Notes: generated from the letters alone by a model not told the origin. Positions 6,127-18,153 are shown, counted from the first letter of the stretch. The stretch: 64,000 bases of DNA from an uncultured Actinomycetes bacterium (GCA_963725665.1 CAVRZA010000001.1:64001-128000), one strand, 5' to 3'. Translations and numbers: made by a program.

Positions 6127-6186
6127 ATGGACTCATATAGGAAGACTGCCGTGGCAGTGGGAGTGCTGAGCGCCGCGGTGCCGTGA
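6127..6186 (+). pseudogene. N-terminal remnant of a DUF4386-like gene
   Basis: MDSYRKTAVAVGVL matches the N-terminal RKAAITVGALF of the downstream gene, then stops. Confidence 0.4.
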
Positions 6187-6209
6187 GGGCCGACAAGTGG
6201 GAGGGCAAC

Positions 6210-6963
6210 ATGGACGCAGTCATCACCAGAGAGAGGCCTCGCGCGAGGACGCGAGGCGAACGAGCGCCGGCGGCCGACGCCGCCCTGCGGCGTCGCAAGG
6301 CCGCAATCACGGTGGGCGCGCTGTTCATCATCGGGGACATCGCCGGCGTCCTGAGCTACGTCGTGACCGGAGGTCTGCTGGACGGGCCGGACGCCCTCAC
6401 CAAGATCGCCGCGAACCAGAGCCACCTGGCGCTGGGGGCGCTCCTGGTGCTGACCATGGGCCTGGCGCTGGCCATGATCCCGGTCGTGATGTATCCGATC
6501 TTCAAGAAGTACAACGAGGTCCTGGCGCTCGGGACCGTCGTCTTCCGGGGCGCGCTCGAGACCGTCGCCTACACGGCCAGCGCAGGCTATCTGGCTGGTG
6601 CTCCTCGAACTCAGCCGGGAGCACCGGGCGGTGGCGTCTGCCGGCGCTCCGCACGTCCAGACACTCAGCGGGCTCCTCGTGGCGACGCAAGGGTCGGTCG
6701 CCACCTGGCTCACTTCCATCGTCTTCAGCCTCGGCGCCCTGATGTTCTACTACCTCTTCTACCAGTCGCGGCTCATCCCCCGCTGGCTGTCGGTCTGGGG
6801 TCTCGCCGGTGCCGCCCTGTACCTGGCCACGCCGTTGCTGGACATGTTCGGCCACGGGTTCGGCGTCCTGATGGCCCCCCTGGCGGTGGCGGAGATCGTC
6901 CTGGCCGTCTGGCTGATCGTCAAAGGGCTGGCCTCACCGGGCCCTGAGGAGGCGGCTGCCTGA
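6210..6963 (+). CDS. DUF4386 family membrane protein (one frameshift near 6590)
   Basis: RKAAITVGALFII, YPIFKKYNEVLALG, YQSRLIPRWLSVWG, EIVLAVWLIVKG split over two frames. Confidence 0.8.
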
Positions 6964-7050
6964 CCGATTGTTCGAGCTGATGCAGATAGCCGACGGGCCA
7001 AGGGCACGATTGGAAGTACGTTGGCCCGCCATCTAGACGAAGGGGAAGGA

Positions 7051-7500
7051 ATGAACACAAGCAAGAAGACCACTGGAATGGAAGATATGAAAGCAAGACT
7101 CTCAACACTCTGGGTTGTGGTCATGTTCAACATGGTCTTCGCGGACATTCTCACCTTCATCAAGCCTGGAGCGCTGCAGGAATTGTGGGCCGGACAAGCG
7201 GGCGTGCAAATCACCCAGGGGCTTCTGCTGGTGTTCGCGCTACTCCTGGAGATCCCGATTGCGATGATCTTCGTGTCTCGCATCCTGAAGCCCGGGCCCA
7301 ACCGCTGGGCGAACACCGTTGCAGCGGCAATCACCACGGCGTTCGTGGTAGGCGGCGGGTCGCTGACTCCTCACTACGTGTTCTTCGCGACCGTAGAAAT
7401 CGCGTGCATGGCGCTGATCGTCCGGTCCGTGTGGACGTGCCGCCGCTCAGAGACCGTCGCCGAGCGTCGGGACGAGGTGCCTGCGCCGGTCGCCTGGTAG
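7051..7500 (+). CDS. DUF6326 family membrane protein
   Basis: KARLSTLWVVVMFNMVFADIL, LLEIPIAMIFVSRIL, NRWAN, YVFFATVE. Confidence 0.75.
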   Translation: MNTSKKTTGMEDMKARLSTLWVVVMFNMVFADILTFIKPGALQELWAGQAGVQITQGLLLVFALLLEIPIAMIFVSRILKPGPNRWANTVAAAITTAFVVGGGSLTPHYVFFATVEIACMALIVRSVWTCRRSETVAERRDEVPAPVAW

Positions 7501-8166: not shown

Positions 8167-8301
8167 CCGGTGGTCTTCGGCTCCGGTCGCCCGTTCTTCG
8201 CCACCGGCGGCCTGGCCGAGCCGCTGCGGCCAGAGAACCCGACCAGGATCGTGCCAGGCGACCGGGTCACCCACTTGGTCTACGAGGTGTGCACGGGATA
8301 G
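8167..8301 (+). pseudogene. C-terminal fragment of a second DHFR/RibD_C-family gene
   Basis: PVVFGSGRPFFATGGLAEPLRPENPTRIVPGDRVTHLVYEV; upstream in-frame stop at 8131. Confidence 0.6.
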
Positions 8302-8876
8302 CGCAGATGCGTGACACCCACACCGGTGACGACTGTCGGATTCCCGAGGACGACCGGTGTGTTCGCGAGGTGGTCGAACAGCCGCACTCCTGCGCCTAGC
8401 AACACGGCAGCCAGATCGATGTGGATCTCGTCGAGCAGCCCGGCGTCCAGGCACTGCTGGATCGTTTGGGCGCCGTGCACTCCCACGGACTTCGGGCCAG
8501 CAGCCGATTTCGCTCGAGCAACGGCGCTTTCGATGCCGTCGGTGACGAATTGGACAGTCGAGTTGGGTCGCGGCCATCCGGCGGGGATGTGGTGGGTAAG
8601 TACGAATGCTGGTCCCCAAGCGTGATTTCCACCCCAGCCTTGGGCGACGTCGAAAGTGCGTCGACCGGTGAGCACGGCACCAAGTCCGGACGTGAGACCG
8701 CGAAGGTGCTCGGCGCTCGGCCCGGACACCTTGAACGTCATGGGGTCCGACCCTCCGGTGTGGATTTCGACGTCCCCCGAGGTGAAGTACCAGTCGAACA
8801 CTTCGGCCACGCCATCGTTGAGGTCGGCGATGTAGCCGTCGAGCGACATGGACATGATTGCGACAACCTTCGACAT
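8280..8876 (-). CDS. Dihydrofolate reductase / RibD C-terminal family protein (cassette gene)
   Basis: MSMSLDGYIA, GRRTFD, GLLDEIHIDLAAVLLGAGVRLF, GVTHLRY; AAAGGA RBS; follows attC R' at 8944. Confidence 0.9.
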   Translation of the reverse strand: MSKVVAIMSMSLDGYIADLNDGVAEVFDWYFTSGDVEIHTGGSDPMTFKVSGPSAEHLRGLTSGLGAVLTGRRTFDVAQGWGGNHAWGPAFVLTHHIPAGWPRPNSTVQFVTDGIESAVARAKSAAGPKSVGVHGAQTIQQCLDAGLLDEIHIDLAAVLLGAGVRLFDHLANTPVVLGNPTVVTGVGVTHLRYPVHTS

Positions 8877-8943
8877 TGCGATGTTCCTTTCGAGGGGTGG
8901 AGACTGCGTTCAGGGGATCGCGCGCTGTCCTCCCGGATCGTCC

Positions 8944-9030
8944 GCCCAACGTGTCGCGCATAACCTGCGCGGGCCGCGGCTGGACTCTCCTACAGACCTT
9001 GGCCGCGTCAGGTTGACGCGCTTGTTGGGC
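8944..9030 (-). mobile_element. Integron attC site (87 bp)
   Basis: Minus strand GCCCAAC-AAGCG-CGTCAACCTGACGCGGCC...GGCCCGCGCAGGTTATGCGCGACAC-GTTGGGC: RYYYAAC/GTTRRRY ends with bulged L boxes, just after DUF1801 stop. Confidence 0.88.
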
Positions 9031-9057
9031 GTCACCGCGAACCTGTGCGATGCCCCG

Positions 9058-9501
9058 TCACGACTTGCCCCAGCCGGGCAACTGACTGGCTTGCTTCACC
9101 CATGCGGCGAACTGCTCCTCGTCGAACTGGTCGTCCTCGTAGATGTTGAGGTAGCGCACGTTCTCGTCTTTGGACTCGCCCGGCGGGACAGGGTCCAGCG
9201 ACGTACCGTTGAAGAAGGCCACTTTCACGTACTTCGCGAAGCAATGGAAGTTGAGGAACCAGCCCTGCCCCTCCATGCCGTAGAAGGGCGAATTCCAGCG
9301 CACCGCCTTCTTCACGTCCGGGACGGTGCGCACGATGATCGAGTCCAGGCGACGTCCGACGTCGCTCTTCCAGCCCGGCATGGCGGCGATGTAGGCCTGT
9401 ACGGGAGCGTCGCCGTCGGCCTTCGCGATCTGAGGATTGCCGCCGGAGAGGAGGACCGGCTCCGCTGCCTCTCCGGACTTCTTGGTCACCTTGTCCGCCA
9501 T
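9058..9501 (-). CDS. DUF1801 domain protein (cassette gene)
   Basis: LLSGGNPQIAK, MPGWKSDVGRRLD, KAVRWNSPFYG, WVKQASQLPGW. Confidence 0.9.
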   Translation of the reverse strand: MADKVTKKSGEAAEPVLLSGGNPQIAKADGDAPVQAYIAAMPGWKSDVGRRLDSIIVRTVPDVKKAVRWNSPFYGMEGQGWFLNFHCFAKYVKVAFFNGTSLDPVPPGESKDENVRYLNIYEDDQFDEEQFAAWVKQASQLPGWGKS

Positions 9502-9567
9502 TGCTCACACTCCCGACCCGTAGGCTCACCGACAACGTGATGATTCCCCTGGCGGATGCGTCAGTAC

Positions 9568-9672
9568 GCCCGACGGTGTGGCGCATCAGCTGCAATGCGC
9601 CGCTGCTCGCCGTCTTCAAGCCCGAGACTAGCGTGTCCGCGGCGTATTGTCTGCTCGATGCGCTTGTTGGGC
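9568..9672 (-). mobile_element. Integron attC site (105 bp, R' GTCGGGC variant)
   Basis: Minus strand GCCCAAC-AAGCG-CATCGAGCAGACAATACGCCGC...GCGGCGCATTGCAGCTGATGCGCCACACC-GTCGGGC. Confidence 0.82.
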
Positions 9673-9811
9673 GGGCGCCGTAGCAGGCCAGACCGTAGGA
9701 CCCGGGAAGCTACGAATCGGGCGAGCATGACCGTGCGCGGGCCCAGCCCCCCTCGAGCTGGAGACGGTGCAGGTCGGCACTCGAGGGCGGGTAGCTGAGA
9801 GGCGAGCTGGT

Positions 9812-10140
9812 TCAGGGCCCGTGTGTCGGAGGCTGTGATTGGGGGGAGCCGGTCATCTTCAACGCGACGATGATCAGCCACGTCGCCAGCATCCCCGCTG
9901 TCAGCAACTCCTGAATCGCGACTTCAGGCCAGGGCCACACCGACCACTGATTGACGACCCCAGACCAAGGCCACGTCGTAACCCAGATAATGCGTTAAGG
10001 AGCCCGAAGACCAGCGCCATGGAGCCGACACGGCGAGAGCCGAGCGCCCACGACAAGAATCCGTATGCAAGCATCGTGATGGGGATCATGAGGAATAGCA
10101 CGCCAGAAACCACGCGGTGGACTGCTTCTGCTATGACCGC
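9812..10140 (-). pseudogene. Fragment of a membrane protein (DUF998-like)
   Basis: AVHRVVSGVLFLMIPITMLAYG...IQELLTAGMLATWLIIVALK in broken frames; no intact start. Confidence 0.35.
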
Positions 10141-11288
10141 GTCCTGAATCGGAAGTCACGCTTCGGTTCTGGAGTGGGGCGGAGGAGATGCTTCTCCGCA
10201 AGCAGGCGATCCATCGCCGGATCGGGTCGCCAGGGGAAGTCGAGGAATGCCCAGTCTATCTCGATCTCTTCTTCACCCACTCGAGATACCGCCAGTCCCA
10301 CCTGACGCTGCAGTCCCCAGTCGTACTTGGCCGCCAGCGTGTAGTTGCGGAGGGCACTCACCCGAGTTTCATACTTGTCCCGGGGCACTGGAACCACGCA
10401 GAAGCCGGTTTTGCGCCGCGGCACGAGCATGCGCGCCGGCAGCTGGAGGTACTCCCCTCCAGCGCTTTTCGAGGGCCCAGTCGAGCAATCCACGAAAACC
10501 GCGCATGTGCACCCGGTTCATGTACGCAAACTCGTCGAGTATCCGGTATAGGAAGTCGCCTGTTGTCGCCGTCGATGTAGAAGACCTTCTCGCCGTACTT
10601 GTTCAGCATGTCCCAAGGTCGAACGACTCGACGTCGTGCAGGGCGTCATCCAGAAGGACCCTGACGGCGTCGTCATCGAGAGTTCCCGAGGGATCTTCGG
10701 CGATGAAGGCGGCCAAGAGGCGCGCTTCATGGTGCTGCCAGGGCGTACCCTGAAGAAGGACCTGCTCGCGGAAGGCGAAGTAGTCTGCGATCTCGGAAGG
10801 CAGAGCCAGGATACGGCAGACCTCAAAGAAGTCTCGGATGTGCAGGAGGTGCACAAAACCGGCCTTGCTGCTCTGTCTGTGACTGGTGCGAGCAAGCAGG
10901 CGGGGCGGGGTTCTGCCGCATGAGTAGAGCGCAACCGGAACGATCGGCGCCTCGGGGCCGGCAAGGTCTCGAATGTGGCCGCGCTGGTTCGGATCCTCAG
11001 ATCTGGCTCGCGCTCGAAGAAGCTCTTGGTGTCGGCGAGTTGCCTGCACGCTTCCTTGAGGACCTCGTGCTTGAACCACCGCTCAATGGCGGCATCGGAG
11101 CCGTCAGCGCGTATGTCGCGCTCCTTCGCCTGAAAGGCCAAGATCGCTTCCGGCAAGAGAGCGATATGGTCCGCGAGCTCGTACTCTTGGCCGGAGGTGG
11201 ACCGGAACTGGTTGCCTGCAAAGGTGAACTCCCGGAGGAAGATGTTCCCGCCGATCTCCGCAAGCAAAGCCTCAAGGTCTGTGCCCAA
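10131..11288 (-). CDS. Hypothetical protein with N-terminal PD-(D/E)XK-like nuclease motif (about 390 aa, several frameshifts; cassette gene)
   Basis: ELADHIAL...AFQAKER motif; ORF pieces 10518-11339, 10603-11079, 10358-10609 and 10131-10493 join into one protein; TTG start 19 nt after attC R'. Confidence 0.6.
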
Positions 11289-11306
11289 AGCTCTCCGACT
11301 CTTTCC

Positions 11307-11375
11307 ACCTAACGTCAGGCGCGTGAGGTCATGGCCCACTGACCTTCTGGCCGAAGGTCATGGGCCGACAGCGCC
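11307..11375 (-). mobile_element. Partial attC site (R'/L' arm and central hairpin kept, R'' arm eroded)
   Basis: Minus strand GGCCCATGACCTTCGGCCAGAAGGTCAGTGGGCC...CTCACGCGCCTGAC-GTTAGGT. Confidence 0.55.
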
Positions 11376-11838
11376 AGTCGTCACTTGAGGTCCGACGCTC
11401 GAGCAGTCGACTGCCGTCGTTCGTGACTATGTACACGGCGTCGATGATCGTGTCAGCATGGCCGGAATCGTCGGACAAGCTGGAGCCTTCCTCTTTGAAC
11501 GTCAGGTAGCCGAACTCAACGAGGTGATTGACGAGAAAGGGCATGGCCACGACCCGACCATGGCGGTAGGCCTCCTTGAGGGCGTTTAGGCCCGGTCTTG
11601 TCAAAGTCTTGACGACGAGCCGACGCTTCATGTCGCGGAGAAGGTCATTGCTCGCTCCCTTGCCGTTGTGATGGGAGACATGGCAGTTGTGGCACAGCAA
11701 GATCTTGTTGTCGTAGGCCTCGCTCGTCGGCTTGGTTTGCTGGAGATGATGCACTGTCAGCACGCGGCTATCACGCAGGCCGCAGAGCGCGCAACTGCCA
11801 TCGGTCTCGAGGTACAGGAGTTCATCCGTAGTCGCCAT
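11329..11838 (-). CDS. HNH endonuclease (cassette gene; true stop may be near 11381)
   Basis: CALCG...LTVHH...NKILLCHNCH zinc/HNH motif; GGAGG RBS. Confidence 0.85.
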   Translation of the reverse strand: MATTDELLYLETDGSCALCGLRDSRVLTVHHLQQTKPTSEAYDNKILLCHNCHVSHHNGKGASNDLLRDMKRRLVVKTLTRPGLNALKEAYRHGRVVAMPFLVNHLVEFGYLTFKEEGSSLSDDSGHADTIIDAVYIVTNDGSRLLERRTSSDDWRCRPMTFGQKVSGP

Positions 11839-11854
11839 GGAGCCTCCGATCCGG

Positions 11855-11916
11855 AGCCAACGTCGACGGTATCAGGGCTACGCTAGGCGCTGTTCGCCCG
11901 GATGTCGTTGTTGGCC
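11855..11916 (-). mobile_element. Short integron attC site (62 bp)
   Basis: Minus strand GGCCAAC-AACGA-CATCCGGGC...GCCCTGAT...GTTGGCT between the HEPN and HNH genes. Confidence 0.7.
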
Positions 11917-13257
11917 TGTCACCCAGGGCACAAGCACCTCGTCTTCGCCCTTCCACCCCTTCCAAGCGCGCCGTGCGTAGTGGCCGGTGTGACCACATGC
12001 GGCGAGAATAGCCAAGTCCAGGTACTGCAAGGCTAGCTGCGAGCACTCGTACCACGTCATCCCGTTGAGCGAGCCAATGACGGTTCGGTTATCTTCTGTG
12101 GCGTGGACGATCGCGTTGCGCACGCGTGCAATGACTCCCGGCCCGTCGAAGGCGTCGCCTTGGCACAAGCCCGATAGACTGGTCATGTAGTCGGGCACCA
12201 TCGCCGGGACGCCGATGTGCTGCAGAAGCACGCGTATCCGGCCTGCTGCTGACAAACGCCTGAAGTCGGTCCGGGTGTGCAGTCGGCTCAGTCTCGACAA
12301 GCAGCACCCAGGCCAGCATGTCGAGTGCGACCTGCGAGAGGACCACCGTGGCCTCTAGGCCGAGCGCTGGTGAATTGGCTTCGACAAGCCAGTGGACGGA
12401 GGAGTTGAGTGGACCCCTCCACGCTGGGTCGTTCCACTTCTTCACGAAACCGGCGAAGAGATTGGAAAGCTCCAGCCGTTTCTGCTCGGGCATCCATGTC
12501 GTGACCGGGCGGCTTTCGTCAATGTCCCACGAGCCGTACTCGCGCCAGGCGACTTCGTCATCGGTGAGGCGGCAAGCGGGAATAGGGGGCCCGCCCACGC
12601 GCCGCGCAGAAACCCGAACCACAGGAAAAGCATGTTGAGGGTCTCATGAGCCTCAGCGATAGTCATTTCGCTCATCGCGGGACGCCATTCACCGACGTGG
12701 GTGATGACGAATCCCGAGTCGCGCTTTGCGGCATTACTAAGCTCACGCGCCTCAGGGATCACGTCCAAGATGCATTCGCCTGAGTCCGCTGCAACTCGCA
12801 TTCGACCGGACATGCTTCCACGCGACCCATGCATCTCATAGGACACGCCTTCACCAATGTAGCTCGGGAAATTGGCGAGACAGAACCGCAACGTCTGAAT
12901 CGGAGGCTTGCCGAAACTGATCGGCTCCGCGACAACGCCTTGGACATTGGGCTCGGTCCCAAGAGCCATACTCGTTACGAGCACCGGTGCCTCAAAGTGA
13001 GGTTCCTCGCACTTGAGGGACCAGCCAGATTGGGAGTCCAGTCTCGCCGCCTGCGAGTAGGCGCCGCCAAAGACAAGCGCCGCGGATGGCAGCCAGCGAA
13101 AGATGAGGTCCGAATCGACAAAGCCCGCGGTGTCACCGATCAGCTCAAATGGCCCAGGCAGAGCTCTAATTGGTTCGTTGAGCGCACGCATTTCGACGTG
13201 CGGCTTCAGTCGTTCAGGCGGGCTATCCGGTGGGTCGGTCACCGTCCACTCCTCCAC
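11878..13257 (-). CDS. HEPN-domain protein with large N-terminal domain (ApeA/YopA-like; two frameshifts; cassette gene)
   Basis: C-terminal RNAIVH (RxxxxH) HEPN RNase motif; ORFs 12442-13257, 12089-12622 and 11878-12300 are colinear. Confidence 0.72.
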
Positions 13258-13465
13258 TCAACCAAGCTAACATCGATTCTGCAGTCTCCATATGGCGATG
13301 ACGCCACCGTCCGCCGTCTTTGGCACGACCGCTGCAACTCTACTGGAGTCAGGAGCCTGGCACGGGCGAAACTCTCGCTCTCCCGAGCGACTTGTCCAAG
13401 TGCGCACTCCAACACCCGTGAGTGCACGCGAGTGCCACCTTGTACTATCACGTCACGCTGAGTTC

Positions 13466-13492
13466 GGTTGCAGGAGGGTTGCAGACGGGTTG
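13466..13492. repeat. Tandem TGCAACC repeats (candidate tyrosine-integrase arm-type sites)
   Basis: GGTTGCAG-GAG-GGTTGCAG-ACG-GGTTG; related copies at 7776-7794 and 59322-59337. Confidence 0.5.
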
Positions 13493-13558
13493 TGGAGGGG
13501 TCCTCGGCGAGGGTCTCGACGACGACGCAAAATCCCTGCATCTACGCCTGAAGAGGGC

Positions 13559-13634
13559 TGGTAGCGCATACCGGATTCGAACCGGTGTTACCGCCGTGAG
13601 AGGGCGGCGTCCTAGGCCCCTAGACGAATGCGCC
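13559..13634 (-). tRNA. tRNA-Glu (CTC)
   Basis: GGCGCATTCGTCTAGGGGCCTAGGACGCCGCCCTCTCACGGCGGTAACACCGGTTCGAATCCGGTATGCGCTACCA cloverleaf, encoded CCA. Confidence 0.97.
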
Positions 13635-13650
13635 ACGCGAGGCTGTCTAC

Positions 13651-13724
13651 TGGCTGCGGGACAAGGATTCGAACGTCGATACCGTGGTCCAGAACCACGT
13701 GTCCTACCATTAGACGATCCCGCA
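13651..13724 (-). tRNA. tRNA-Gln (CTG)
   Basis: TGCGGGATCGTCTAATGGTAGGACACGTGGTTCTGGACCACGGTATCGACGTTCGAATCCTTGTCCCGCAGCCA; one C-C mismatch in T-stem; upstream TGCTATCCT extended -10. Confidence 0.93.
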
Positions 13725-16946: not shown

Positions 16947-18153
16947 ATGGACCTCTACGAACACCAGGGCAAGCAGCTCTTCGCCGAGTTCGGCATCCCG
17001 GTGCTGCCCTCGGAGCTCGTGCGCAATGTCGAGGAGGGGCGGCGAGCGGCCGGCCGTCTCGGCCGGCCGCTCGCCGTCAAGGCGCAGGTGCTGCGCGGCG
17101 GCCGGGGCAAGGCCGGCGGCGTGCGCATCGTGCGCGACGGCGACGAGCTCGAGCAGGCGCTCGACGCGCTGCTCGGCATGACGATCGGCGGGCAGCGCGT
17201 CGAGAGCGTGCTGCTCGAGCAGGGCGTCGCCGTCGCCCGCGAGTTCTACCTCGCCGTCGCCCTTGACCGCGGCGCCAAGAGGCCCCTGCTGCTCTTCTCG
17301 ACGCAGGGGCGGCATCGACATCGAGCAGGTGGCGCGCGAGGAGCCCGAGGCGCTGCGTCGCCTGCACATAGACCCGCTCACGGGGCTGCAGGAGTTCCAG
17401 GTGCGCGACCTGGCGCTTCTGGGCCGGCTTCTCGGCCGACGAGCGGCGCGCGTTCGCACACATCGCGCGCGCCGCCTGGGACCTCTATCGCGCCAAGGAC
17501 GCGACCCTGGTCGAGATCAACCCGCTCTGCCAAGAGGAGTCGGGGCGCTTCGTGCCCCTCGACGCCAAGGTGACGATCGACAGCAACGCGCTCTACCGTC
17601 ACCCGGAGCTCGAGCGTCTGCCCGGTTTCTCGCCGCTGCAAGGAGTCGACGACCCGCGCGAGCTGCGTGCGCGAGAGGCCGGCGTGACCTACGTGGGGCT
17701 TGACGGCGACATCGGCATCCTTTCCAACGGGGCGGGGATGGTCATGAGCGTCCTCGACCAGGTCGTCGCCGGCGGCGGCAGGCCGGCGGACTTCCTCGAC
17801 TTGGGCGGCGGCGCGCGCGTACCGCAGATCGCCGCCGCCCTCGACGTGATCCTCTCCGACGCGCGCGTGCGCGTCATCCTCGTGACGATCTTCGGCGGCA
17901 TCACGCGCTGTGACGAGGTCGCCCGCGGTCTGCTCGCGGCGCTCGAGCAGTCACGGCGCGCGGGTCCCGGTGGTCGTGCGCCTCGTGGGGACCAACGCCG
18001 AGGAGGGTCGAGCTCTGCTGGAGGCGGCGGGGCGAGCCGACTTGCACCCGATGGCGACGCTCACCGAGGCCGTCGCGAAGGCGGTCGCGGTGGCGAAGGA
18101 GAGGGAGCGGGTCGACGGTGACCCCAAGGTCCGCGCGCGAGACCGCGCCGTGA
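16947..18153 (+). CDS. sucC: Succinyl-CoA synthetase beta subunit (several frameshifts)
   Basis: [60 protein letters not shown]. Confidence 0.92.

What the first reader, a model, noticed from the sequence alone, without database searches (positions are those of the whole stretch)
8280..13271. Hidden integron cassette array (CALIN) in a tRNA-Glu island of a probable actinobacterium
Seen: co-oriented minus-strand genes are separated by attC-like hairpins at 11855-11916, 11307-11375 (partial), 9568-9672 and 8944-9030. The three complete sites start with an R'' ending in AAC plus a 5-nt spacer, have bulged L boxes and end in a GTT-type R' (GTC at 9568). Each downstream gene starts within about 70 nt of R'. 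No integron integrase is in the window. Established: integrons are mostly described from Proteobacteria and a few other phyla and are rarely reported in Actinomycetota. Inference: this lineage has its own cassette system, and the array was either carried into a tRNA island or is serviced by an IntI in trans.
Basis: partly seen in the sequence, partly recalled or inferred. Interest (0 to 1): 0.85.

Follow-up and report, generated by a model that had tools for sequence, protein, structure and literature searches.

The report
Integrase-less integron cassette array, Thermoleophilia
This is a partly decayed integron gene-cassette array that has lost its integrase, sitting next to a tRNA gene in an uncultured soil actinobacterium whose relatives often carry complete integrons, in a phylum usually described as almost free of them.

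Summary
Two of the four hairpins (8941-9033 and 9565-9675, minus strand) are genuine attC sites. A covariance model built only from hairpins beside integron integrases in other genomes scores them at 71 and 43 bits (E 3e-17 and 1e-9). The same model finds 5 of 5 classical class-1 attC sites and nothing in 5 control genomes. The third site (11852-11919) is marginal at 13.6 bits. The fourth keeps only an R' half.

The cassette between the two strong sites (a DUF1801 gene) recurs at 80-95% DNA identity in 12 of 88 related genomes. In two of them it sits between attC sites of an array, one of which lies beside intI. In the one pair aligned base by base (G081), homology starts at the upstream R' core.

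This genome has no integron integrase (best 86 bits against a cut-off of 265). Yet 47 of the 89 genomes of its Thermoleophilia family pass the cut-off, and in the relatives examined the arrays lie downstream of intI on its strand.

The array abuts tRNA-Glu. An exact 50-nt repeat of the tRNA's 3' half lies 16.8 kb away. It is a known kind of element in an under-reported lineage.

The parts
8941..9033 (-). attC site 1. R'' is GCCCAAC at 9030-9024 and R' is GTTGGGC at 8950-8944. This is the attC of the DUF1801 cassette.
   Evidence: R1 69.7 bits, E 7e-17. R2 71.4 bits, E 3e-17 on the minus strand against 14.6 bits on the plus strand. Fold -30 kcal/mol, z -4.5.
9565..9675 (-). attC site 2. R'' is GCCCAAC at 9672-9666 and R' is GTCGGGC at 9574-9568. 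Its R' marks the start of the DUF1801 cassette.
   Evidence: R1 38.1 bits. R2 43.0 bits, E 1e-9. A C at the third position of the GTT core (GTC) is seen in 3 of 93 attC sites beside IntI.
8944..9574 (-). DUF1801 gene cassette. The ORF is 9501-9058 (147 aa).
   Evidence: Pfam DUF1801, E 3.7e-16. Over 9576-9013 it is 87.5% identical (492 of 562) to a cassette between two attC sites in the G081 integron; flanks are 39-56% identical. Found in 12 of 88 other family genomes at 80-95%. Lies between two strong attC sites in G021.
8280..8876 (-). RibD_C-family (dihydrofolate-reductase-like) gene after attC 1, with no attC of its own. It is either the last cassette with a lost site or flanking DNA.
   Evidence: Pfam RibD_C, E 8e-9. 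No model hit between 8280 and 8940. An 84% match in G037:C9 has no attC nearby.
9724..10122 (-). 3' fragment of a cassette gene, truncated at its 5' end.
   Evidence: 93% identical to G041:C6, where the full gene follows an attC (L128 2616-2712, 21.2 bits). Window homology starts in mid-gene.
10131..11339 (-). Gene of unknown function, split over overlapping reading frames.
   Evidence: ORFs. No Pfam, PADLOC or NCBIfam hit. The ESM Atlas returns only 'hypothetical protein' clusters. 65% DNA match in G025.
11307..11383 (-). Possible attC relic. The R' half is intact (GTTAGGT at 11313-11307) and R'' is degenerate (TGACGAC).
   Evidence: 8.2 bits, E 0.95, R' half only. Strong unrelated inner hairpin, z -4.4 to -5.1.
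11329..11838 (-). HNH endonuclease-like gene.
   Evidence: Pfam HNH, E 1.2e-4. Partial NCBIfam matches below cut-off. 74% DNA match in G057.
11852..11919 (-). Weak, diverged attC-like site. R'' is GGCCAAC at 11916-11910 and R' is GTTGGCT at 11861-11855.
   Evidence: 11.3 bits, E 0.13. 13.6 bits, E 0.054. A counterpart of 16.1 bits follows the homologous gene in G072 and is itself followed by a 36.5-bit attC.
11878..13257 (-). Gene of unknown function at the head of the array, split over three overlapping frames.
   Evidence: ORFs. No family hit. 71% DNA match to G072:C22.
13559..13634 (-). tRNA-Glu(CUC). Its 3' half (13557-13606) is repeated exactly at G000:C1:60774-60823.
   Evidence: ARAGORN and Rfam. 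50-nt match at 100%, sequence shown.
6183..7500 (+). Two cassette-derived genes, DUF4386 and DUF6326, convergent with the array. Only the 5' arm of the attC after DUF4386 remains (6958-6983).
   Evidence: Pfam. 86-92% DNA identity to G082:C15 (the contig that holds its intI), G081 and G079:C5. attC sites follow the gene in G081 (27.7 bits) and G079:C5 (22.2 bits). Alignment.

Best explanation
The window holds a CALIN, that is, a cluster of integron attC sites lacking an integrase. It is the remnant of a gene-cassette array of the kind that integron integrases build.

Shown:
- On the minus strand the order runs from tRNA-Glu through an unknown gene, a weak attC, an HNH gene, an attC relic, an unknown gene, a truncated cassette fragment, attC 2, the DUF1801 cassette, attC 1 and a RibD_C gene.
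- The two strong sites have the canonical attC plan: an RYYYAAC/GTTRRRY inverted core, an imperfect L-box stem, and a bulged C on the top strand (a G on the recombined bottom strand).
- They belong to the same attC family as arrays that lie 3' of bona fide intI genes, on the same strand, in other genomes of this Thermoleophilia family.
- The DUF1801 cassette is a module with its own distribution. It is more similar between genera than the one conserved flanking gene compared in the same genome.

Inferred:
- The cassettes were captured by IntI-catalysed recombination of folded single-stranded attC sites, either in an ancestor or in a donor.
- This genome then lost intI, or received the array without it.
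- The array is now static and decaying. The signs are one 5'-truncated cassette, one attC reduced to its R' half, one reduced to its 5' arm, and a last gene without a site.
- The array lies at the tRNA-proximal end of a 16.8-kb segment bounded by exact 50-nt repeats of the tRNA-Glu 3' half. It therefore probably arrived with, or inserted into, an integrative island.
For: The models were built without any sequence of this genome. R1 comes from 11 attC sites of four relatives and R2 from 93 attC sites of 24 loci. They hit 8941-9033 and 9565-9675 at 69.7/38.1 and 71.4/43.0 bits.

R2 recovers 5 of 5 expected class-1 attC sites (aadA1, aac(6')-Ib-cr, catB3, blaOXA-1, arr-3) on the cassette strand at 19.3-40.1 bits. 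The best off-target hit is 14.2 bits.

R2 finds 0 hits at E <= 0.01 in 5 genomes (about 17.5 Mb) of class families in which no IntI was found. It finds 6-15 hits in 4 of 5 IntI-less genomes of the same family.

On the 93 sites, 91.3% of pair cells are paired, against 28-33% when the partners are slid. There are 243 compensatory cells against a shuffle mean of 78. The bulged C is present in 87 of 93 sites, and the AAC/GTT core letters in 86-91 of 93.

TIGR02249 passes its cut-off in 47 of the 89 family genomes, at up to 489 bits, and in 0 of 14 control genomes. The G079 IntI aligns over its full length to V. cholerae IntI4 (PDB 2A3V), E 2.7e-91.

49 attC hits lie in the five loci 3' of intI and none in eight loci 5' of it. 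92 of 93 hits are on the intI strand.

Cassette sharing is shown. In G039 the cassette is 94% identical, while a conserved flanking gene is 77% identical.

The own genome has 11 attC hits at E < 0.01 in R2. One search adds one more on C4. Together they form four same-strand clusters and two single sites.
Against: - IntegronFinder's own attC model could not be run, and Rfam gave no hit.
- Only two sites are secure. The segment 9.7-13.3 kb rests on a marginal site (E 0.05-0.13), a relic and a truncated fragment.
- The unpaired central spacer is 2 nt against 5 nt, not the roughly 5/6 nt of class-1 sites.
- The attC of the DUF1801 cassette diverges from the G081 copy after its 5' arm. G039 and G062 show no detectable attC after the cassette.
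- RibD_C, HNH and the 10251-11282 segment have no attC near their homologues elsewhere.
- No recombinase gene was found in C1:38-78 kb, so the 'island' has repeats but no integrase.
- Synteny with G067 around the tRNA is not clean.
- Recombination activity is untested.
Confidence: 0.85

Rival explanations
1. Only the DUF1801 unit is integron-derived. On this view it is a single cassette with its two bounding sites, perhaps inserted off-target. The 9.7-13.3 kb segment (HNH and two unknown genes) would be ordinary cargo of an island integrated at tRNA-Glu, not cassettes.
For: Sites 11852-11919 and 11307-11383 are not significant. G+C drops to 0.61 only over 9.5-13.5 kb. Homologues of HNH and of 10251-11282 have no attC nearby. 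An exact 50-nt tRNA repeat bounds the segment.
Against: The homologue of the head gene in G072 is followed at the same relative place by a weak attC (16.1 bits) and then by a 36.5-bit attC. Window 9724-10122 is a fragment of a gene that follows an attC in G041. All genes are co-oriented with short gaps. The segments have separate distributions among relatives.
Confidence: 0.25
2. The array is still active and is serviced by an integron integrase that lies in an unassembled part of the genome, on a plasmid, or arrives transiently on incoming DNA.
For: The assembly has 12 contigs and is 97.5% complete. Two sites are intact. GTC cores occur in 3 of 93 sites beside IntI. One weak attC lies 1.5 kb from a contig end (C11:669367-669437).
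Against: No TIGR02249 match exceeds 86 bits in 3.73 Mb, and tblastn with a family IntI finds only Xer-like genes. Several sites and one cassette are truncated. IntI-less genomes with several CALINs are common in the family, 4 of 5 tested.
Confidence: 0.1
3. The hairpins are not recombination sites. They would be a lineage-specific intergenic repeat or terminator family that merely resembles attC.
For: They lie at gene ends on the coding strand and fold stably. Rfam gave no hit. No functional test exists.
Against: The same model recovers 5 of 5 classical attC sites. In the relatives examined the sites cluster 3' of intI on its strand. They are absent from 5 genomes of IntI-free families. In the G081 alignment, homology between copies of the cassette starts at the R' core. 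There is no T-run, and the terminator scan gives 2 sites against 3.3 expected.
Confidence: 0.03

Closest known systems
CALIN (cluster of attC sites lacking integron-integrase), as defined for IntegronFinder (PMC4889954, PMC9024848; passages read)
   Same: There are two or more attC sites on one strand within 4 kb, cassette-sized spacing (532 nt between sites), promoterless short leaders and no intI nearby.
   Different: The element was detected with a lineage-built model, not with IntegronFinder's own. The host is Actinomycetota, for which those papers report only 'a few CALIN' and no complete integron. Part of the array is decayed.
Integrons with an 'inverted' integrase, where intI and attC lie on the same strand. 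This layout is named as the second known type in the methods of PMC13323075. Treponema and Chlorobium as classic examples are recalled, not checked.
   Same: In the relatives, arrays lie 3' of intI on its strand. 92 of 93 attC hits are so oriented, and there are no hits on the 5' side.
   Different: The window itself has no intI. The hosts are Thermoleophilia and Coriobacteriia.
Class 1 mobile integron attC sites (aadA1, blaOXA-1, catB3, arr-3, aac(6')-Ib-cr cassettes on plasmids NZ_LT985321.1 and NZ_LR822053.1)
   Same: Both share the RYYYAAC/GTTRRRY cores, the AA after R'', the 'ATC' with a bulged C in L'', and the strand polarity. They are cross-recognised by model R2 at 19-40 bits. The G079 IntI is 55.9% identical to IntI1.
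   Different: The class-1 unpaired spacer is longer. Three pairs that are paired in the Thermoleophilia sites are unpaired there. intI1 is divergent from its cassettes. Class-1 cargo is antibiotic resistance, whereas here the cargo is DUF-type and unknown genes.
Vibrio cholerae sedentary chromosomal integron (IntI4/VchIntIA, PDB 2A3V)
   Same: The IntI of relatives aligns full-length at E 2.7e-91, including the integron-specific segment. The arrays are chromosomal and hold many cassettes: 15 attC hits in 18 kb of G079.
   Different: The arrays seen here are far smaller, attC sequences are heterogeneous, and intI is co-oriented with the cassettes.

Membership tests
integron attC recombination site | Inverted core sites R'' (RYYYAAC) and R' (GTTRRRY) at the two ends | tested here: met
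   GCCCAAC/GTTGGGC at 9030-9024 and 8950-8944. GCCCAAC/GTCGGGC at 9672-9666 and 9574-9568, with one core letter off; a C at that position is seen in 3 of 93 reference sites. The weak site has GGCCAAC/GTTGGCT.
integron attC recombination site | Imperfect hairpin with an L box and an extrahelical base that marks the bottom strand | tested here: met
   The model alignments place a bulged C on the top strand (G on the bottom strand) after the invariant T, in both strong sites. The same column is C in 87 of 93 reference sites.
integron attC recombination site | Recognition by an attC covariance model, with strand polarity matching the cassette genes | tested here: met
   The lineage models give 71.4 and 43.0 bits on the coding strand and 14.6 bits on the other strand. 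The same model finds 5 of 5 class-1 attC sites. IntegronFinder's attC model itself could not be run.
integron attC recombination site | Cassette boundaries at the G|TT of R' (modules exchanged at that point) | tested here: met
   Homology with the G081 cassette begins at the upstream R' core: 79-89% inside against 49-56% upstream. The downstream end is less clean, since identity falls after the 5' arm of the cassette's own attC.
integron attC recombination site | Recombined by an integron integrase as folded single strand | not testable with these tools
   This needs a recombination assay.
CALIN | At least two attC sites close together on one strand and no integron integrase nearby | tested here: met
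   Two sites lie 532 nt apart. The best TIGR02249 score in the genome is 85.9 bits against a cut-off of 265, with none in the window.
complete integron | intI gene with the integron-specific segment next to attI and the array | tested here: not met
   Absent from this genome. Present in relatives. attI was not identified anywhere.
tRNA-integrated genomic island | Direct repeat of the 3' part of the tRNA at the far end | tested here: met
   50 of 50 nt are identical at C1:60774-60823, and two further diverged copies lie near C1:47950 and C1:38205.
tRNA-integrated genomic island | Integrase gene inside the island | tested here: not met
   No PF00589 or PF00239 match lies in C1:38-78 kb.
tRNA-integrated genomic island | Composition unlike the genome | tested here: inconclusive
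   G+C is 0.60-0.62 over 9.5-13.5 kb against 0.68 for the contig. The rest of the 16.8-kb segment is near the genome value.

The most novel reading that the evidence does not exclude
Two families of Thermoleophilia, and also Coriobacteriia-type MAGs, may maintain their own chromosomal integrons with a co-oriented integrase. If so, this would be a native integron system in Actinomycetota, the phylum that the integron literature treats as nearly integron-free. Cassettes appear to move between genera: up to 95% DNA identity, against 77% for a conserved flanking gene in the one genome compared. Integrase-less genomes such as this one keep several orphan arrays, one of them at a tRNA-Glu integration hot spot. 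That placement suggests cassette arrays can hitch-hike on tRNA-targeting islands.
Probability: 0.55. Interest if true: 0.75.

Novelty: new member of a known kind. Interest (0 to 1): 0.6.

Why it matters
[quoted passage not shown] A 2026 permafrost study still notes their 'virtual absence' in Actinomycetota (PMC13323075).

Here the element in the window is tied, by site structure and by a shared cassette, to a Thermoleophilia family in which 47 of the 89 genomes pass the curated IntI cut-off. In the relatives examined, cassette arrays lie on contigs 0.15-2.1 Mb long.

That gives a high-G+C, Gram-positive-type lineage in which to ask why integrons are rare in the phylum. It also supplies a set of attC sites and integrases for testing host factors. 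Finally, it shows that integrase-less arrays persist and decay there.

The window element itself is an ordinary CALIN in mechanism and carries no resistance genes.

Tried and rejected
- Rfam, at gathering and at E <= 10, gave only tRNAs and chance hits. I do not know whether Rfam holds an attC family.
- Exact and near-exact pattern scans for RYYYAAC...GTTRRRY found few sites and missed most real ones. Motif scans with mismatches were swamped by noise.
- The repeat finder on the loci 5' of intI gave only G+C-rich noise.
- I first looked for arrays on the 5' side of intI, as in class 1 integrons. None are there.
- I tested whether relatives' integrons sit at tRNA-Glu. No tRNA-Glu or tRNA-Gln lies in the 11 loci scanned.
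- Cargo function: Pfam, PADLOC, NCBIfam and the ESM Atlas gave nothing for the unknown genes.
- The promoter scan found none. The terminator scan found 2 sites against 3.3 expected.
- tblastx synteny around tRNA-Glu with G067, G081 and G039 was too rearranged to fix the island limits.
- No remnant of intI was found near any of this genome's arrays.
- The window hit at 17136-17234 on the plus strand (21.2 bits) lacks the AAC/GTT cores. I treat it as off-target.


Full report
**What is there.** The window lies at C1:64001-128000 of a 3.73-Mb, 12-contig assembly that is 97.5% complete. As single-stranded DNA they fold better than dinucleotide shuffles:
- 8940-9035: -30 kcal/mol, z -4.5.
- 9560-9680: z -4.0 on the plus strand and -2.8 on the minus strand.
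- 11850-11920: z -2.2 and -2.8.
- 11300-11385: z -4.4 and -5.1.

The genes around them run on the minus strand:
- RibD_C, 8876-8280.
- DUF1801, 9501-9058.
- HNH, 11838-11329.
- Two unknown genes split over overlapping frames, 11339-10131 and 13257-11878.

tRNA-Glu and tRNA-Gln follow at 13559-13724, also on the minus strand. G+C falls to 0.60-0.62 over 9.5-13.5 kb, against 0.68 for the contig.

**Is there an integrase?** The curated integron-integrase model TIGR02249 (cut-off 265 bits) reaches only 85.9 bits in this genome. Those hits are two Xer-like genes on contig 3, and nothing lies in the window. tblastn with a family IntI agrees.

The same model passes its cut-off in 47 of the 89 genomes of the same family, at up to 489 bits. 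It rings in 0 of 14 control genomes at E <= 1e-30. In an even sample of 251 genomes of the class it passes in 35:
- Family f1: a match at E <= 1e-60 in 26 of 45.
- Family f4: 11 of 45.
- Family f6: 1 of 24.
- Nine further families: none.

Public titles call three of the same-family genomes 'uncultured Thermoleophilia bacterium'. The 345-aa IntI of G079 aligns end to end with V. cholerae IntI4 (PDB 2A3V, E 2.7e-91), including the integron-specific KYPNAP...RHH segment. It is 55.9% identical to IntI1.

**Arrays in relatives, and an independent model.** I first looked 5' of intI, as in class 1 integrons, and found nothing. The hairpins lie on the 3' side, on the intI strand.

Eleven of these hairpins, from G079, G039, G054 and G036, aligned well. 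Their consensus is an R stem, a 2-nt against 5-nt spacer, and an L stem with one bulged base. From these I built model R1, which contains nothing from this genome.
- R1 found 49 sites in the five loci 3' of intI.
- It found none in eight 19.5-kb loci 5' of intI.
- It found four in other loci of this genome.

Over 27 loci it found 93 sites, of which 92 are on the intI strand. Those loci include Coriobacteriia and other Actinomycetota, and more weakly other phyla. These 93 sites gave model R2.

On the 93 sites, 91.3% of pair cells are paired, against 28-33% when partners are slid. There are 243 compensatory cells, a count reached by 0 of 500 shuffles. That alignment was fitted to the model, which favours the structure. 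The bulged base is C in 87 of 93 sites, the T before it is invariant, and the AAC and GTT core letters are kept in 86-91 of 93.

**The window against these models.**

| Site (minus strand) | R1 | R2 |
|---|---|---|
| 8941-9033 | 69.7 bits, E 7e-17 | 71.4 bits |
| 9565-9675 | 38.1 bits, E 3e-8 | 43.0 bits |

The plus strand of the first site reaches only 14.6-15.0 bits, so the top strand is the coding strand.

With filters off, 11852-11919 scores 11.3 bits (E 0.13) and 13.6 bits (E 0.054). The site at 11304-11332 matches only through its R' half, at 8.2 bits and E 0.95.

**Controls.**
- R2 recovers all five attC sites expected in two class 1 integrons, on the cassette strand. The scores are aadA1 40.1, aac(6')-Ib-cr 31.1, catB3 26.3, blaOXA-1 23.4 and arr-3 19.3 bits. 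The best off-target hit is 14.2 bits.
- R2 finds nothing at E <= 0.01 in five genomes (about 17.5 Mb) of class families in which no IntI was found.
- R2 finds 6-15 clustered sites in 4 of 5 IntI-less genomes of the same family.

The two strong sites are therefore attC sites by every sequence test I could run. The third is in the grey zone and the fourth is at best a relic.

**Cassettes behave as modules.** The DUF1801 protein has a 92%/81% identical copy, in two reading-frame pieces, in the G081 integron. That copy lies between attC sites at L033 16829-16924 and 16182-16289, a few cassettes from intI.

In the DNA alignment, identity is 87.5% (492 of 562) over window 9576-9013. It is 49-56% upstream and 39-47% downstream. 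The homology begins at the R' core of the upstream attC, GTCGGGC here and GTTGGGC in G081. It ends after the 5' arm of the cassette's own attC.

A DNA search of the family finds this cassette in 12 of 88 other genomes at 80-95% identity:
- In G021 it lies between attC sites of 71 and 64 bits.
- In G039 and G062 only the upstream site is detected.
- In G039 the cassette is 94% identical, while a conserved gene beyond the tRNAs is 77% identical. This points to recent exchange.

The other segments each have their own scattered distribution:
- RibD_C in G037 (84%).
- Window 9724-10122 in G041 (93%) and G003 (80%).
- HNH in G057 (74%).
- The head gene in G072 (71%).
- Window 10251-11282 in G025 (65%).

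In G072 the head gene is followed by a weak attC (16.1 bits) at the place of window site 11852-11919, and then by a 36.5-bit attC. In G041 the gene matching 9724-10122 follows an attC and is full-length. The window keeps only its 3' part. No attC was found near the homologues of RibD_C, HNH or 10251-11282.

**Decay and setting.** The signs of decay are:
- A 5'-truncated cassette.
- An attC with a degenerate R''.
- A RibD_C gene with no attC after it.
- On the other strand, DUF4386 and DUF6326 genes at 6183-7500. These are 86-92% identical to DNA of G082:C15 (the contig that holds its intI), G081 and G079:C5. Only the 5' arm of the attC after DUF4386 survives here, whereas G081 and G079:C5 have an attC at that place.

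The genome holds further orphan sites:
- C11:456013-457168, three sites.
- C2:227244-228064, two sites.
- C4:341440-342929, three sites.
- C1:545233-545324 and C11:669367-669437, single sites.

The 3' 48 nt of tRNA-Glu plus 2 nt are repeated exactly at C1:60774-60823. Two diverged copies lie farther out. No tyrosine or serine recombinase gene lies in C1:38-78 kb, and synteny with relatives is rearranged. The integrons of relatives are not at this tRNA.

**IntI tree.** A quick tree was built from 78 IntI sequences: 77 of the 80 best hits to the G079 protein plus IntI1 as outgroup. Rows with a stop, or with under 280 residues matched, were dropped. The Thermoleophilia sequences fall in a starred clade of 9 rows, all Actinomycetota (SH-aLRT 98). 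The Actinomycetota label needs 5 changes, against 22.6 when shuffled. The sample is biased towards the query and the method is 'quick', so this is supportive only.

**Literature.** I read passages only.
- Its predecessor found none in Actinobacteria (PMC4889954).
- A review lists Actinobacteriota among phyla with integrons, without detail (PMC8618304).
- A 2026 study notes their 'virtual absence' in Actinomycetota and describes the inverted-integrase layout in its methods (PMC13323075).
- A 2024 preprint speaks of clades 'previously found without any integrons' (10.1101/2024.07.02.601686).
- Full-text searches for integron plus Thermoleophilia gave 12 papers, none about such integrons by title or abstract. 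Integron plus Coriobacteriia plus attC gave 0. Related term sets were also tried. None of these found a description of these integrons.
- Supplements were closed and subscription journals are not covered, so prior mention cannot be excluded.

**Verdict.** This is a real integrase-less cassette array of a known kind, partly decayed, in a lineage where integrons are common but apparently not described. How attC sites work is established knowledge. That these particular sites recombine is an inference.

Noticed in passing
G000:C1:60774-60823, about C1:47950 and about C1:38205 (outside the window, upstream of its start): There are three partial copies of the tRNA-Glu 3' half, one exact over 50 nt. 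Each is followed by a C-Y-K-ATCAG motif. This suggests serial integrations at tRNA-Glu. No recombinase gene was found between them.
   Followed up: partly
window 6183-7500 (+): DUF4386 and DUF6326 genes lie convergent to the array and are 86-92% identical to DNA of G082:C15, G081 and G079:C5. The DUF4386 gene is frame-broken, and its true stop lies inside an R''-like GCCTGAC at 6958-6964.
   Followed up: partly
G000:C11:456013-457168; C2:227244-228064; C4:341440-342929; C1:545233-545324; C11:669367-669437: This genome holds further orphan attC clusters and single sites. C11:457076-457168 is nearly the twin of window site 8941-9033.
   Followed up: partly
window 13417-13556: The stretch just 3' of tRNA-Glu, inside the island, matches several places in G044, G002, G010 and G001 at 77-84%. 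It may be a conserved end of a family of integrating elements.
   Followed up: no
G000:C1:464000-530000: A cluster of about ten tyrosine-recombinase gene fragments, many matching only the C-terminal part of the domain.
   Followed up: no
window 17136-17234 (+): A 21-bit hit of the attC model in G+C-rich sequence without AAC/GTT cores. It is probably off-target.
   Followed up: no
window 10131-11339 and 11878-13257 (-); L033 16765-16324: Genes are split over overlapping frames, and the G081 copy of DUF1801 also changes frame at codon 104/105.
   Followed up: no
plasmid NZ_CP007129.1 (Gemmatirosa kalamazoonensis), 856836-857804: The best plasmid match to the Thermoleophilia IntI (59% identity) lies on a 1.1-Mb replicon of a Gemmatimonadota isolate. 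It ranks above IntI1, which is 55.9% identical.
   Followed up: no
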